36,749 bases of DNA from a virus. The DNA lies in IMG/VR virus record IMGVR_UViG_3300009678_001574. One strand, written 5' to 3'. The notes beneath the pieces are model-generated. The model searched no databases and had not been told where the DNA came from. It saw only the letters and a list, made by a program, of their open reading frames with translations. The position numbers were made by a program, and so were the translations under genes. Each line of letters starts with the position of its first letter. Within the stretch, counting starts at the first letter, position 1. Below are positions 7,670 to 11,378 of this stretch, one piece after another.

Positions 7670-7966
7670 ATGTCTCTTAAAACAAAGTACTCTATAGGGC
7701 AAGAGGTATATTACATAAAGGAAGCTCTAAGAAAGATTCTTGTTTGCGCTAGTTGCAATACAACTCGCAGTGAATATCATAAAGTAGTGGCGAAGGCTAA
7801 AATTAAAGATATTAGTTTTACTGGCAGCATCAGAGGCAAGGCGCAGAAAACTACGTATAGCTATTTGATATCTAATAGTATGGGATATAATATGGCTGAG
7901 AATGACTTGTACGCGACGAAAGAAGAGGCAGAGGCTAAGCGTGGGCACAAGAAAGGAATCTACTAA
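7670..7966 (+). CDS. hypothetical protein with a CxxC motif
   Basis: KYSIGQEVYYI N-terminus typical of small beta-barrel phage proteins; CASC. Start could be 7661. Confidence 0.7.
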   Translation: MSLKTKYSIGQEVYYIKEALRKILVCASCNTTRSEYHKVVAKAKIKDISFTGSIRGKAQKTTYSYLISNSMGYNMAENDLYATKEEAEAKRGHKKGIY

Positions 7967-8513
7967 CATAGATAGTGCTACTGCTTTTAGGGGCGAGACC
8001 AGAAGAGAGCGTTATATACGCAAGCTCCAAACAGCTAGTATGATGCCTATCTCCGTAGCTACAATTAACTTTAGTAAGGAAGCTAATATAGCCTATGTGG
8101 TTAGGGCCGCTGTGTGCTTTGGTGCCTTCGAGGTTTGTTTAATCGGCAATACTCCTAATCGAGATATTATGAATGACCTCTCTGGCAGCACATATGATTA
8201 CATTAAGTTTAACAGGTTTGCCAATGTGTCCGACTTCGTAGATTACAATAAACAAAACGACATCGGCCTTATAACCTTTGAACTTCCTAGTGAGCAGTTT
8301 CCCTCTCAGCCCCTTGACCAATACAAGTTTGATTTCACCAAGAGACATTGCATAGTTGTGGGCCACGAAACTATTGGTGTGCCTGTCGAGATTATGCTTA
8401 ACTCTGAGCGAGTATATGTACCCATGCCTGGTGCTGGCTTTTGTTTGAACACAGCACAAGCTGCTAACATAGCTATGTATGAGGCTGCTAGACAATATGG
8501 AGCAAGACGATGA
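7941..8513 (+). CDS. SpoU/TrmH-family RNA 2'-O-methyltransferase
   Basis: NIAYVVRAAVCFG, VVGHETIGV and VPMPGAGFCLNTAQA SPOUT motifs. Start uncertain; GTG 7941 chosen. Confidence 0.9.
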   Translation: MGTRKESTNIDSATAFRGETRRERYIRKLQTASMMPISVATINFSKEANIAYVVRAAVCFGAFEVCLIGNTPNRDIMNDLSGSTYDYIKFNRFANVSDFVDYNKQNDIGLITFELPSEQFPSQPLDQYKFDFTKRHCIVVGHETIGVPVEIMLNSERVYVPMPGAGFCLNTAQAANIAMYEAARQYGARR

Positions 8514-8977
8514 CTGAATATAGATTGTTCAAATGCACTGGCTGTCCTAATCAGGTACGGGAAGACCATAAGTTTTGTAGCCAGTGTGGCGCATCTGTAG
8601 TCGTTCCAGTTGAAAATCACGTTGTTAGCTCTGCCTACAGGAAGGTTTTAGGGACATGGCGAGTGTCTACTGAAGGCGACTGTGAGGGTAGGTCTACTCG
8701 CGACCTTGGTGTCCATACCGGATATGTAGATGAAATTGCCAGGTCGCTCGGCGCGTCAGCTATGTATTCTCTTCAGTTTAAGGCTCTGAATATTCCAGAG
8801 AAGCACACACCTGATAGTAAAGTTAAGAAGGTAAGTGTTAGTTTCGATATCGATTCTAAGACATGGGACTTGACACCCGAGCAAAGATTTAATGTAGCTC
8901 GGAGGCTGTTCAAGGATAGGCCAGTAAGAGTAAGCCAGGGACAATACTACGCTAGTTTTATCTTGGAGTTTGATTAA
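8510..8977 (+). CDS. hypothetical protein with an N-terminal zinc ribbon
   Basis: CTGC...KFCSQCGA. Confidence 0.8.
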   Translation: MTEYRLFKCTGCPNQVREDHKFCSQCGASVVVPVENHVVSSAYRKVLGTWRVSTEGDCEGRSTRDLGVHTGYVDEIARSLGASAMYSLQFKALNIPEKHTPDSKVKKVSVSFDIDSKTWDLTPEQRFNVARRLFKDRPVRVSQGQYYASFILEFD

Positions 8978-9294
8978 TGGACATCATCCAGAAGACTTTC
9001 AAGATTGTCAGTGAGCATTTAGAGCTTAAGGATAATTGGGGCAACAATCCGTATATGCCTAAGGAAAAGTTTGAGGCTCTATTAAAGGAGCTGCAAGAGC
9101 ATGTATCCCAAACTTTCAAGATTGGTGAGCGGCATGGTGAAATGCTTGCACTGAGTAAGCTAAGCATGGCTCATAACAAGTTCTTTGAAGACGCAAAGAA
9201 AGATGCTGAGCTAAAAGATACCGATATAGAAAGCACATCTCGCTACTTAAAGTGGCTTGAGACTTTCAATAAGAAAGAAACGCCTAATGTCTAG
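8977..9294 (+). CDS. hypothetical protein
   Basis: TAATG overlap; 105 aa. Confidence 0.7.
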   Translation: MDIIQKTFKIVSEHLELKDNWGNNPYMPKEKFEALLKELQEHVSQTFKIGERHGEMLALSKLSMAHNKFFEDAKKDAELKDTDIESTSRYLKWLETFNKKETPNV

Positions 9295-9844
9295 TTACTG
9301 GTTCATCCCGTTGGTGGTTGAGAGTATTTTGCTCTTGATTCTTATAGCTTATGATAACGGATTGTGGGCCACTATAACGGTCGTTGGTACACTTCTAGCT
9401 ATCCACATCACTGGTCTGTATAACATCTTGGACTTTATTAAGGCTAACTGGTCTGGTGTTTTGGCTGGCGCTGTTGCATACATGCTTGTTGGTTTTACAT
9501 GGGCCATTGCTAAATGGGTTATGTATGTGTTCAAGAAGAAGGATACCTACAAGTCGCTCAAGAAGCATTTCGTAAGCGTCCACGGAATTACCACGGATGC
9601 TATTCCTTCTGAGTTTAAGCAGAAGTGGCAACATGAATTAAAGTATAACGATCTTCCGCCGTCCATCGGAAAACACAAGTCTGATATGGCAAGATGGGCA
9701 TTCTATTGGCCACTCAGCGTAATCAACTCTTTGATTAAGGACTTTGCTCGTAAGGTATTTAATCTAGCATTCGAGGCGGTAAAGAACTCTTTACAAAAGA
9801 TTTCGGACAAAATCTTTGCTGATGTAAGTCAGGATTATAAGTAG
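9287..9844 (+). CDS. membrane protein
   Basis: Three to four hydrophobic segments; WAFYWPLS motif. Confidence 0.8.
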   Translation: MSSYWFIPLVVESILLLILIAYDNGLWATITVVGTLLAIHITGLYNILDFIKANWSGVLAGAVAYMLVGFTWAIAKWVMYVFKKKDTYKSLKKHFVSVHGITTDAIPSEFKQKWQHELKYNDLPPSIGKHKSDMARWAFYWPLSVINSLIKDFARKVFNLAFEAVKNSLQKISDKIFADVSQDYK

Positions 9845-9853
9845 TTAGGCCCT

Positions 9854-10024
9854 GCTAGAAGTTATAGTAGTCTGGTTTTCTGGTTGTTAACTCCAAAAGA
9901 ACGCGTTCTTAGGAGAGGTACTAGGAAGGGGCTAAGGTGACTTTTGGGATACCTGGTCTTGAAAGCACTGACCGTTGCGACTATACAGGTAAAGTTTGTC
10001 GCCCAGACTACTATAACTTTTAGC
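9854..10024 (+). ncRNA. unidentified structured RNA closed by a 22-bp terminal stem
   Basis: GCTAGAAGTTATAGTAGTCTGG (9854-9875) pairs with CCAGACTACTATAACTTTTAGC (10003-10024), with one G-U pair. Internal helices present; no ORF. Confidence 0.7.
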
Positions 10025-10110
10025 CCGCGTGCGTGGAATTGGTAGACAGGTCAGACTCAAAATCTGATGGCTTAACGGCCGTGTAGGTTCGATGCCTACC
10101 GCGGGCACCA
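10023..10110 (+). tRNA. tRNA-Leu(CAA)
   Basis: GCCCGCG/CGCGGGC acceptor stem, TCAGA-CTCAAAA-TCTGA anticodon arm, long variable arm, CCA. Confidence 0.97.
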
Positions 10111-10122
10111 AACGAGGACACG

Positions 10123-10644
10123 ATGGAAGATAATTGGTTTGCTCCTAATATTAAAAGATATAAAGAAAGTAAGGAGCTTTCATCTGGTTTGCTTACGGCT
10201 TATGTTATTCACAGAGAACGGGATGGTCGTATTAGACCAGGCTCAAAGGATACGCTAGCTGGCTTAGATGAGACCGAACGAACAGAGATAGCTGTAGCTG
10301 TTAGAGATATAGAGCAATTAGCTAGGAAGTTTGAAGTTGTTAGATGGATGACAATCCAAGAAGCCGTAGATGATTACGGTGGTGTAGCAGGCAAGACGTC
10401 CGACTTCAAGGTTCTGGCGTTGGCTACCGCAGGTCGTTTGTTGGTTACTATTAGTGATAGTAAGCCGCAAGGTCAGGGTAAGTTTGGTGGAGCTTGGGTA
10501 TCTTTGATAGGTGAAGATGGCAACCCTGGTCGTATGGGTATTCAGGGACTTTGTGCTACTAAAGAAGAGGCATTAGGTTTGCTGGATGCGGCAATTAAAG
10601 ATATGCCAAAGTTAAAAAAAGACAACGAGGTTGGGATAATCTAG
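10123..10644 (+). CDS. hypothetical protein
   Basis: GAGG RBS; 173 aa. Confidence 0.75.
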   Translation: MEDNWFAPNIKRYKESKELSSGLLTAYVIHRERDGRIRPGSKDTLAGLDETERTEIAVAVRDIEQLARKFEVVRWMTIQEAVDDYGGVAGKTSDFKVLALATAGRLLVTISDSKPQGQGKFGGAWVSLIGEDGNPGRMGIQGLCATKEEALGLLDAAIKDMPKLKKDNEVGII

Positions 10645-10655
10645 TAGAGATACAC

Positions 10656-11378
10656 ATGAATATCAAAGACAAGGACGCATTTTTCTTAGAGCTGCATAGG
10701 TCGGTTTTGAATTCTGACCTTAGCCTAGAGAACCATACTATGATGCCGCGCCTTGGGAGCATGACTGCATCAGAGCTTAAAACTATCATCGAGAACTATT
10801 CATGTTTGTCTAACAGAGCAATACAGTTTCTTGCTACTGCGCTTGTGTATAGTCAAGATTGGCCGAATTTGTATAGAGAGATAGAACGAAATATCGAAGA
10901 AGAAAAGGGCATTAATACTGGGGGCATATCTCATCTGGCCATGATGCGTCAGGGATACAAGGAAGACTTGGGAATTGATACCTCTAATATTAAGCCATTG
11001 AAATGCACCAAACTCTTTCTAGATGATATGAACGATACATTCCTAGATAGTCGTTTGCCTTTTGTGGCTGGCGCTGTGTTAGCATTTGAAAGCGCGGCAG
11101 TAGAAGAATTTAAAATCGTAGACAACTTGATTAGACAGTACCTATTTCTTAAAGGAAAACGAATGGGTGGTCTAACTGAATCATATATCAACGGGCATAA
11201 AGACTTTGAGGTAGAGCATAGTAGCGGTCTTAGAAAGGCCATTATGAGTCATATGAGTGGTGACGATGCTCATCTTATCGAGTGGGGTTTTAACACCGTA
11301 TGCCGTGATATGACTACTTGGTGGCATTCTTTGAACTACCAAGTAGGTAAAAAGTACCATAGAAATAAGGAGAAATAA
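10656..11378 (+). CDS. heme-oxygenase-like di-iron protein (DUF3865/CADD-like)
   Basis: NIEEEKG...SH, AFE and H-x3-E-x2-H (HKDFEVEH) metal ligands. Confidence 0.7.
   Translation: MNIKDKDAFFLELHRSVLNSDLSLENHTMMPRLGSMTASELKTIIENYSCLSNRAIQFLATALVYSQDWPNLYREIERNIEEEKGINTGGISHLAMMRQGYKEDLGIDTSNIKPLKCTKLFLDDMNDTFLDSRLPFVAGAVLAFESAAVEEFKIVDNLIRQYLFLKGKRMGGLTESYINGHKDFEVEHSSGLRKAIMSHMSGDDAHLIEWGFNTVCRDMTTWWHSLNYQVGKKYHRNKEK

What the first reader, a model, noticed from the sequence alone, without database searches (positions are those of the whole stretch)
9854..10024. Unidentified ~170-nt structured RNA fused to the 5' end of tRNA-Leu(CAA)
Seen: the largest ORF-free gap outside rnpB is closed by a 22-bp stem. 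The single non-Watson-Crick position is G-U on the + strand, which favours a + strand RNA. Candidate inner helices include AAGAAC/GTTCTT, CTCC/GGAG, TCCAAAAG/CTTTTGGG, ACCTG/CAGGT and GGTGAC/GTCGCC. Its 3' arm meets tRNA position 1, the same ncRNA-then-tRNA layout as rnpB, so RNase P would release it. Inference: size and closing stem are compatible with a 6S-like RNA polymerase decoy, a retron-like or other decoy RNA, or a new class. I cannot assign it.
Basis: partly seen in the sequence, partly recalled or inferred. Interest (0 to 1): 0.7.

Follow-up and report, generated by a model that had tools for sequence, protein, structure and literature searches.

The report
New structured RNA beside phage tRNA-Leu
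A gene-free stretch of about 170 bases in an uncultured giant phage encodes a real, conserved, intricately folded RNA that matches no known RNA family and sits just upstream of a leucine tRNA gene in four related phages; its job is still unknown.

Summary
Window 9854-10024 carries a unique 22-bp inverted repeat (one G-U) around 127 nt, ending where tRNA-Leu(CAA) begins.

It is a + strand RNA, not a DNA repeat. I found three homologues in metagenomic contigs of related jumbo phages (L001, L045, L062; 64-88% identical). All four fold alone into the same four-way junction: a 21-bp closing stem P1, arms P2, P3 and P4, and a 5-bp P3/P4 loop-loop pairing.
- 15 of 63 pairs change on both sides and stay paired, in every helix and in the loop-loop pairing.
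- 96% of cells are paired; 0 of 500 shuffles match this.
- Each copy has 9-11 G-U pairs.
- The RNA is 88% identical where synonymous sites of flanking genes are 53-62% identical.

No Rfam family matches any copy at E<=10, so 6S-like, Y-RNA-like and retron-like readings get no support.

Direct fusion to the tRNA holds in only 2 of 4 phages, so release by RNase P does not define the family.

Best reading: a new, autonomous structured RNA cut from a polycistronic transcript through its long stalk. Its function is unknown. The scan had not seen it on other DNA.

The parts
9855..9875 (+). P1 5' arm (21 bp shared by all four homologues; G9854-C10024 adds a 22nd pair in the window only). Its first three bases are a conserved UAG, which is the stop codon of the upstream ORF in L001, L045 and L062.
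   Evidence: (5 of 21 pairs show compensatory change)
9876..9928 (+). Arm P2: 9-bp helix (9876-9884 / 9920-9928), a conserved asymmetric internal loop, 4-bp P2a (9891-9894 / 9912-9915) and 5-bp P2b (9897-9901 / 9906-9910), capped by an invariant self-complementary CGCG loop (9902-9905).
9930..9973 (+). Arm P3: short base helix (9930-9931 / 9972-9973), P3a (9936-9938 / 9967-9969) and 9-bp P3b rich in G-U pairs (9942-9950 / 9956-9964), with a 5-nt loop at 9951-9955.
   Evidence: (P3a 2 and P3b 2 compensatory pairs)
9977..10002 (+). Arm P4: 5-bp helix (9977-9981 / 9998-10002) with a 16-nt loop. Loop bases 9986-9990 are complementary to the P3 loop.
   Evidence: G-C to A-U in L045
9951..9990 (+). 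Loop-loop (kissing) pairing between 9951-9955 and 9986-9990: ACCUG/CAGGU in three copies, ACCUA/UAGGU in L062. It is the only loop-loop complementarity of 4 bp or more that all four copies keep.
10003..10023 (+). P1 3' arm. Its last paired base shared by all four copies (10022) is position -1 of the tRNA.
10023..10110 (+). tRNA-Leu(CAA), directly abutting P1. Its CCA end is followed by AA-CGA and the ribosome-binding site of the next ORF (start 10123).
9257..9844 (+). Upstream ORF (195 aa, no family). Its stop lies 10 nt before P1. It is not a fixed neighbour: L001/L045 have a 63-aa zinc-ribbon ORF there and L062 has a 102-aa ORF.

Best explanation
Shown: window 9855-10023 is the gene for a conserved, compactly folded + strand non-coding RNA of a family not described so far. 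A 21-bp terminal stem (P1) closes a four-way junction with three arms. The loops of two arms (P3 and P4) are complementary and covary. The RNA is an autonomous module: four related jumbo phages keep it in the same variable region upstream of a tRNA-Leu gene, while the ORFs on either side differ. Inferred: it has no room for its own promoter, because P1 starts at or 10 nt after the upstream stop codon. It is therefore made as part of a polycistronic mRNA-tRNA transcript and then cut out. In the window and L001, RNase P cleavage at tRNA position +1 would make its 3' end flush with P1; the phage carries its own rnpB. The family-wide feature is the long, perfect stalk of about two helical turns, which I read as a processing stalk for a double-strand-specific nuclease (RNase III type), like the stalks that flank rRNAs. 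The released RNA of about 130-170 nt would be the working product. It most likely acts as a protein-binding or scaffold RNA, possibly self-associating through its complementary loops. Its biochemical function remains unknown.
For: Real and unique repeat. Homologues: L001:1684-1853 (196.8 bits), L045:244-418 (142.7 bits) and L062:1562-1735 (102 bits) with a model built from the first two sequences only. Structure: 63 pairs, 96.4% of cells paired, 15 pairs with changes on both sides spread over all 9 helices including the loop-loop pairing, 0 of 500 shuffles as high, slid controls 0-5. An independent MAFFT+RNAalifold run gives the same fold with 15 compensatory pairs. Each sequence alone folds to the same architecture. 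Strand: 9-11 G-U pairs per copy, + strand MFE 5-19 kcal/mol better than the - strand, - strand model scores 16-32 bits against 102-206. Non-coding: 10 single-base gap columns. Purifying selection: RNA 88% identical between window and L001, against 53-62% at third positions of conserved codons in the flanking genes. Autonomy: the flanking ORFs differ among the four loci. No promoter-like or terminator-like site lies next to it. rnpB is present in the same window with the same RNA-then-tRNA layout. T4 tRNA clusters have spacers of 1-10 nt, so a structured element abutting position +1 is compatible with RNase P processing (established knowledge of T4 dimeric tRNA precursors).
Against: No transcript data exist: expression, ends and stability are all inferred. 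Nothing tested here bears on RNase III cleavage. The host and its nucleases are unknown. In L045 and L062, P1 has two non-paired positions. The tRNA-dependent 3' end holds in only 2 of 4 phages. Only four sequences from a narrow clade are known, so the conserved 'functional' nucleotides are poorly defined. The loop-loop pairing rests on a single compensatory event. P3 is about three times longer than P4, so an intramolecular kiss needs a sharp bend. A plain stalk would suffice for a purely cis-acting processing site, but nothing excludes that the inner fold only serves stability.
Confidence: 0.45

Rival explanations
1. A purely cis-acting punctuation and stability element. The fold marks a gene boundary in a polycistronic transcript. 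After RNase P, RNase E or RNase III cuts next to it, it stays on the upstream mRNA as an exonuclease-proof 3' cap, or it insulates the tRNA from translating ribosomes. It has no trans function.
For: It always sits at a gene boundary, starting at the upstream stop codon in 3 of 4 loci. RNase P cleavage would leave the upstream mRNA ending in a flush 21-bp helix. Most other tRNAs in the window directly follow ORF stops. Earlier, unchecked notes report ribozymes at gene boundaries of the same genome. Precedent: the MALAT1 3' end is made by RNase P at a tRNA-like element and protected by a structure (established knowledge).
Against: A simple hairpin would do this job. Here three inner arms, an invariant loop, conserved G-U pairs and a covarying loop-loop contact are all maintained. 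The upstream gene it would protect differs among the four phages.
Confidence: 0.2
2. A new self-cleaving or otherwise catalytic RNA that processes the transcript at this boundary, as the twister, HDV-like and hammerhead motifs elsewhere in this genome are thought to do.
For: Size, a multi-helix junction, a tertiary loop-loop contact and invariant unpaired nucleotides are typical of ribozymes. Earlier notes describe a genome unusually rich in self-cleaving ribozymes at gene boundaries (not checked here).
Against: No match to any ribozyme family in Rfam at E<=10. No candidate cleavage site or catalytic core can be named from four sequences. The phage already has RNase P and a tRNA to cut here.
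Confidence: 0.1
3. A member or functional analogue of a known decoy RNA: a 6S-like RNA polymerase decoy, a Y-RNA-like Ro partner or a retron msr-msd.
For: The size of about 170 nt and the long helix formed by the 5' and 3' ends are shared with all three.
Against: No Rfam hit to 6S, Y RNA, YrlA or any other family at E<=10 in any copy. The fold is a four-way junction, not a rod with a central bubble. There is no T-loop motif. No reverse transcriptase or TROVE protein is among the neighbours scanned in the window or in the gene tables of the other three loci.
Confidence: 0.05
4. A DNA-level element: a MITE-like inverted-repeat remnant, a recombination or protein-binding site, or a single-stranded DNA fold.
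For: A perfect 22-bp terminal inverted repeat of MITE-like size, in a mosaic region where small ORFs come and go, next to a tRNA gene.
Against: Single copy in the window. Absent from a whole 436-kb related phage. Same syntenic place in four phages. No target-site duplication. Fifteen compensatory pair changes and 9-11 G-U pairs on the transcribed strand only, which would be A-C mismatches on the other strand. Conservation is far above the neutral rate.
Confidence: 0.04

Closest known systems
Phage T4 stable RNAs rnaC and rnaD (species 1 and 2 RNAs)
   Same: Phage-encoded small stable RNAs (139 and 119 nt) that lie in a tRNA transcription unit, abut a tRNA by 1-6 nt and still have no known function (annotation).
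   Different: They lie 3' of tRNA-Arg, not 5' of tRNA-Leu. rnaC is tRNA-like, with a canonical T arm and a short closing stem. There is no model hit. Neither has a 21-bp stalk or the loop-loop pair.
rRNA processing stalks and phage T7 RNase III sites
   Same: Flanking sequences pair into a duplex of about two helical turns that encloses a structured RNA inside a longer transcript. Cutting the duplex releases the RNA (established knowledge).
   Different: Cleavage here is untested, the enclosed RNA is only about 127 nt, and it belongs to no known family.
MALAT1 / mascRNA (3' end made by RNase P)
   Same: A non-coding RNA lies directly upstream of a tRNA-shaped RNase P substrate, so RNase P defines its 3' end and a structure then protects it (established knowledge).
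   Different: That system is eukaryotic, uses a tRNA-like element rather than a real tRNA, and protects the end with a triple helix. Here the tRNA fusion is present in only 2 of 4 family members.
phi29 packaging RNA (pRNA)
   Same: Similar size (174 nt), a helix formed by the 5' and 3' ends, a multi-helix junction and two loops complementary to each other; in pRNA these pair between molecules to form a ring (established knowledge).
   Different: pRNA has a three-way junction and 4-bp loop pairs, and is confined to small phi29-like phages at a genome end. There is no Rfam pRNA hit. Oligomerisation is untested here.
GOLLD and ROOL RNAs
   Same: Orphan structured RNAs often found in prophages and near tRNA genes (PMC5737381). 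Cryo-EM showed RNA-only multimers (bioRxiv 10.1101/2024.12.08.627333).
   Different: They are 3-5 times larger and widespread. No Rfam hit here.

Membership tests
6S RNA | Match to the Rfam 6S covariance models | tested here: not met
   No hit at E<=10 in the window, L001, L045 or L062.
6S RNA | Long, largely double-stranded rod with a large central bubble that mimics an open promoter | tested here: not met
   The covariation-supported fold is a four-way junction with three arms on a fully paired stalk.
6S RNA | Binds the sigma-70 RNA polymerase holoenzyme | not testable with these tools
   Needs a pull-down or gel shift.
Retron msr-msd RNA | Reverse transcriptase gene immediately downstream | tested here: not met
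   Downstream are a tRNA and a 173-aa ORF of no family. No RT domain appears in the neighbours scanned or in the gene tables of L001, L045 and L062.
Retron msr-msd RNA | Flanking inverted repeats a1/a2 enclosing msr and msd hairpins | tested here: inconclusive
   Terminal inverted repeats exist, but the interior is a junction with three covarying arms rather than the msr/msd pattern.
Y RNA / bacterial YrlA | Match to the Rfam Y RNA / YrlA models; a tRNA-like domain with a T-loop motif | tested here: not met
   No hit at E<=10. ARAGORN finds no tRNA-like element inside it. The P4 loop is 16 nt and has no T-loop sequence.
Y RNA / bacterial YrlA | Encoded next to a Ro60/Rsr (TROVE) gene | tested here: not met
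   No TROVE domain in the ORFs scanned between 175 and 14633. The rest of the 468-kb genome could not be read.
T4 rnaC / rnaD | Sequence and structure homology | tested here: not met
   Models R1 and R2 find nothing in T4 69500-74500. The folds differ.
phi29 pRNA | Match to the Rfam pRNA model; three-way junction | tested here: not met
   No hit. The junction has four helices.
phi29 pRNA | Two loops that pair between molecules to form a ring | not testable with these tools
   Complementary, covarying loops exist, but intra- and intermolecular pairing cannot be told apart in silico.
MITE / DNA inverted-repeat element | Multiple dispersed copies, target-site duplication, neutrally drifting interior | tested here: not met
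   One copy in the window, none in a 436-kb relative, a syntenic position in four phages, and an interior with compensatory changes only.
Known self-cleaving ribozyme classes (twister, twister-sister, hammerhead, HDV-like, hairpin, pistol, hatchet, glmS) | Match to the Rfam model | tested here: not met
   No hit at E<=10.
RNase III processing stalk | Duplex of about 20 bp or more formed by sequences flanking the released RNA | tested here: met
   21 bp in all four copies. It is kept by 5 compensatory pairs and is 95% paired.
RNase III processing stalk | Staggered double-strand cleavage by RNase III | not testable with these tools
   Needs an in vitro cleavage assay or end mapping.

The most novel reading that the evidence does not exclude
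The RNA is a new functional class rather than a passive processing signal. Either it is a small RNA-only assembly, in which the covarying P3 and P4 loops (and perhaps the invariant self-complementary CGCG loop) pair between molecules to build dimers or rings, a miniature of pRNA or of the ROOL/GOLLD cages. Or it is a new self-processing ribozyme that belongs to this phage's ribozyme-based transcript punctuation.
Probability: 0.15. Interest if true: 0.8.

Novelty: categorically new. Interest (0 to 1): 0.55.

Why it matters
Giant phages carry much RNA machinery of their own. This window alone has seven tRNAs, an RNase P RNA and tRNA-modifying enzymes. The element adds a well-supported orphan structured RNA to that list. 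It is under strong purifying selection, is kept through gene shuffling around it, and has an architecture (long stalk, four-way junction, covarying loop-loop contact) that matches no described family. At 170 nt, with a defined tertiary contact, it is small enough for direct biochemistry and structure determination. It could show how such phages process polycistronic mRNA-tRNA transcripts, or reveal a new RNA-protein or RNA-RNA assembly. The novelty claimed is at the level of the RNA family; whether the function is new is not known. Its narrow known distribution (four sequences in one clade) limits its general importance for now.

Tried and rejected
- Rfam at gathering and at E<=10 on all four copies returned only tRNAs.
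- blastn of 9300-10700 against 50,697 phage records returned only tRNA-Leu hits.
- Exact and gapped DNA patterns from the stalk and conserved loops found nothing in viral contigs.
- The same approach gave 8 chance hits in metagenome contigs, none confirmed by the model.
- In genome contigs it gave 0 and then 16 chance hits. These collections evidently do not hold this phage lineage.
- Protein-anchored searches in viral contigs found nothing or one distant relative.
- That relative, G001 (436 kb, IMG/VR), was fetched whole and scanned with both models. The only hit is an unrelated GC-rich palindrome in a repeat region.
- More distant syntenic loci (L002-L007, L063, L064) lack the RNA.
- A pairing between the P4 loop and the tRNA-Leu anticodon loop was considered and dropped, because L062 does not keep it.
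- The SPOUT methylase upstream (7902-8513) could not be assigned to TrmL, the enzyme acting on tRNA-Leu. Its best NCBIfam hit, TrmH, scores far below the cut-off.
- The window's whole genome is not held, so other copies or partner genes elsewhere in the 468-kb contig could not be looked for.

Full report
**Context.** The window is densely packed with + strand ORFs. It carries seven tRNAs and a bacterial type A RNase P RNA. It is part of a 468,446-bp metagenomic contig (ENA ERZ27267619) with phage-family proteins. No whole genome is held for it. It is best read as an uncultured jumbo phage.

**The observation.**
- Arms 9854-9875 and 10003-10024 are 22 nt, complementary except for one G-U, and 127 nt apart.
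- The arm sequence is unique in the window, and none is expected by chance.
- tRNA-Leu(CAA) begins at 10023, so the 3' arm runs into tRNA position 1.
- The + strand folds to -68.2 kcal/mol (z -5.5, 0 of 200 shuffles as good). The - strand folds to -54.5.

**Homologues.** DNA searches of the phage, viral, metagenome and genome collections gave nothing real. Walking through neighbouring proteins did work.
- The upstream ORF has an 80% identical relative on L001. There the same RNA (88% identical) again runs straight into a tRNA-Leu(CAA), but three extra small ORFs separate it from the upstream gene.
- One of those ORFs led to L045 and another to L062.
- A covariance model built from the window and L001 only scores L045:244-418 at 142.7 bits and L062:1562-1735 at 102 bits.
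- Pairwise identity of the four RNAs ranges from 64 to 88%.
- Nothing else matches in 561 kb of related DNA. This includes a complete 436-kb relative (G001) and the more distant syntenic loci L002-L007, L063 and L064.
- The scan's earlier notes hold no look-alike on other DNA.

**Structure.** All four sequences fold on their own into the same architecture:
- a 21-bp stalk, P1;
- arm P2, a 9-bp helix, a conserved asymmetric internal loop, then 4-bp and 5-bp helices capped by an invariant CGCG loop;
- arm P3, with a 9-bp helix rich in G-U pairs and a 5-nt loop;
- arm P4, 5 bp with a 16-nt loop.

P2 follows P1 and P4 precedes P1 without unpaired bases, and only 1 and 3 nt link the arms, so this is a tight four-way junction.

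On the model-based alignment, 63 pairs are 96.4% paired. Fifteen pairs change on both sides and stay paired. These are spread over every helix, and 0 of 500 shuffles reach this. Registers slid by 1-3 columns give 0-5 such pairs. An independent MAFFT alignment folded by RNAalifold returns the same fold, with 15 compensatory pairs.

The P3 loop and the middle of the P4 loop are complementary over 5 nt. In L062 the G-C pair of this contact has become A-U. It is the only loop-loop complementarity of 4 bp or more that all four copies keep. The third and fifth decay in the homologues and are replaced by P3b and P4.

**RNA, not DNA, and which strand.**
- Each copy has 9-11 G-U pairs on the + strand. 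These would be A-C mismatches on the other strand.
- The - strand folds 5-19 kcal/mol worse and scores 16-32 bits against 102-206.
- All neighbouring genes are on the + strand.
- Ten single-base gap columns rule out a conserved reading frame.
- Between the window and L001 the RNA is 88% identical, and P1 is 100% identical. Third positions of conserved codons in the three flanking genes are only 53-62% identical. The RNA is therefore under strong purifying selection.
- A MITE or neutral inverted repeat is thus very unlikely. It is single-copy and syntenic, has no target duplication, and changes only in ways that keep pairs.

**Relation to the tRNA.**
- In the window and L001, the last P1 pair that all four copies share is position -1 of tRNA-Leu(CAA).
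- In L045, the RNA is followed after 4 nt by a tRNA-Leu(UAA)-like gene cut off in the T loop (weak tRNA hit of 20.3 bits at 422-482; alignment). A 58-aa cysteine-rich ORF and an intact tRNA-Leu(TAA) follow.
- In L062, 15 nt and an 87-aa membrane-like ORF separate the RNA from tRNA-Leu(CAA).
- So proximity to a tRNA-Leu gene is constant and was probably ancestral. Fusion, and hence RNase P release, does not define the family.
- The upstream neighbour also varies: a 195-aa ORF, a 63-aa zinc-ribbon ORF or a 102-aa ORF. Meanwhile genes further out are 92% identical in protein between the window and L062.
- The RNA is therefore an autonomous module kept inside a mosaic region.
- In three loci the conserved UAG at the foot of P1 is the stop codon of the upstream ORF. 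In the window the stop lies 10 nt before P1.
- There is no room for a separate promoter, and no promoter-like or terminator-like site is nearby. Co-transcription with the flanking genes is the simplest inference.

**Mechanism (inferred).** The RNA must be freed from, or function within, a polycistronic transcript.
- Where the tRNA abuts it, RNase P would cut flush with P1. The phage has its own rnpB, which shows the same RNA-then-tRNA layout.
- Spacers of 1-10 nt in the T4 tRNA cluster show that structured neighbours right at +1 are compatible with tRNA processing.
- The feature common to all four copies is the perfect or near-perfect 21-bp stalk. That is much longer than folding requires, and it is kept by five compensatory pairs.
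- I read it as a double-strand-specific processing stalk, as in rRNA precursors and T7 early RNAs. The enclosed junction RNA would be the product.
- The invariant loops, conserved G-U pairs and tertiary contact argue for a specific partner or activity rather than a mere stability hairpin. No data here say what that partner or activity is.
- I give this composite reading 0.45, a purely cis-acting cap or insulator 0.2, a new ribozyme 0.1, known decoy families 0.05 and a DNA element 0.04.

**Comparison with known RNAs.**
- No Rfam family matches any copy at E<=10.
- 6S RNA is excluded by architecture.
- Retron RNA is excluded by the lack of a reverse transcriptase beside any copy.
- YrlA/Y RNA is excluded by the lack of a T-loop domain and of a TROVE neighbour.
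- The nearest functional parallels are the T4 stable RNAs rnaC and rnaD. They are tRNA-linked and still of unknown function, but they have a different fold and position.
- Other parallels are rRNA-type processing stalks, the RNase P-defined 3' end of MALAT1, and phi29 pRNA and ROOL/GOLLD for loop-mediated assembly and tRNA/phage association (PMC5737381; bioRxiv 10.1101/2024.12.08.627333).
- It is a member of none of these.

**Verdict.** The element is a genuine, conserved structured RNA of a new family with unknown function. It is supported about as well as four sequences allow. Interest is moderate (0.55): it is a solid new motif in an RNA-rich giant phage, but its known range is narrow and no experiment has yet addressed it.

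Noticed in passing
L045:419-500: Right after the RNA lies a tRNA-Leu(UAA)-like gene truncated in the T loop (20.3-bit tRNA hit at 422-482). A 58-aa cysteine-rich ORF and a complete tRNA-Leu(TAA) at 685-771 follow. It looks as if a small gene was inserted into, or replaced the 3' part of, the tRNA that originally abutted the RNA.
   Followed up: partly
window 9855-9869 and the same place in L001, L045, L062: The 5' arm of P1 carries three in-frame stop codons (codons 1, 4 and 5). All four copies keep them, and in L062 one UAG has become UAA with a compensating change in the 3' arm. In three loci the first is the real stop of the upstream ORF. This may be chance or a termination safeguard.
   Followed up: no
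window 8510-9294 versus L062:377-1143: The two ORFs upstream are 92-93% identical in protein between the window and L062, yet the RNA is only 67% identical and the ORFs between differ. The RNA/tRNA-Leu neighbourhood is a mosaic hot spot of gene exchange.
   Followed up: partly
window 7902-8513; L063:2878-3456: A SpoU/SPOUT RNA 2'-O-methyltransferase lies 0.9-1.5 kb upstream of tRNA-Leu(CAA) in both the window and the distant relative L063. It could be a tRNA-modifying partner, but it could not be assigned to TrmL or TrmH (both scores far below the cut-offs).
   Followed up: partly
window 10108-10122; L001:1936-1945; L062:2102-2112; L045:769-780: The trailer CCA-AA-CGA after the tRNA-Leu, followed by the next gene's ribosome-binding site, is kept in all three related contigs.
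   Followed up: partly
L039:15960-16340 (G001, IMGVR_UViG_3300017388_000001): An ORF-free region in the 436-kb relative holds three direct copies of a unit of about 48 nt, interleaved with GC-rich perfect palindromes and a short tandem repeat (fold -98 kcal/mol, z -10). It is unrelated to the finding and could be a repeated promoter/terminator or origin-like region.
   Followed up: no
G001:C1:30108-30377 (L021): The related 436-kb phage also has an RNase P RNA-like match (51 bits, below the Rfam cut-off, only 270 nt), about 65 tRNAs including CUA and UCA anticodons, and a tmRNA. rnpB may be a clade trait.
   Followed up: no
L064:2298-3104: An 800-nt stretch without called + strand genes follows the homologues of the small ORFs that precede the RNA in L001. 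It has no tRNA, no Rfam hit and no match to the new model, so it may hold a different non-coding element.
   Followed up: no
L063:4307-4391: In this distant relative the 85-nt spacer before tRNA-Leu(CAA) holds a simple hairpin with a GC-rich stem instead of the four-way-junction RNA.
   Followed up: no
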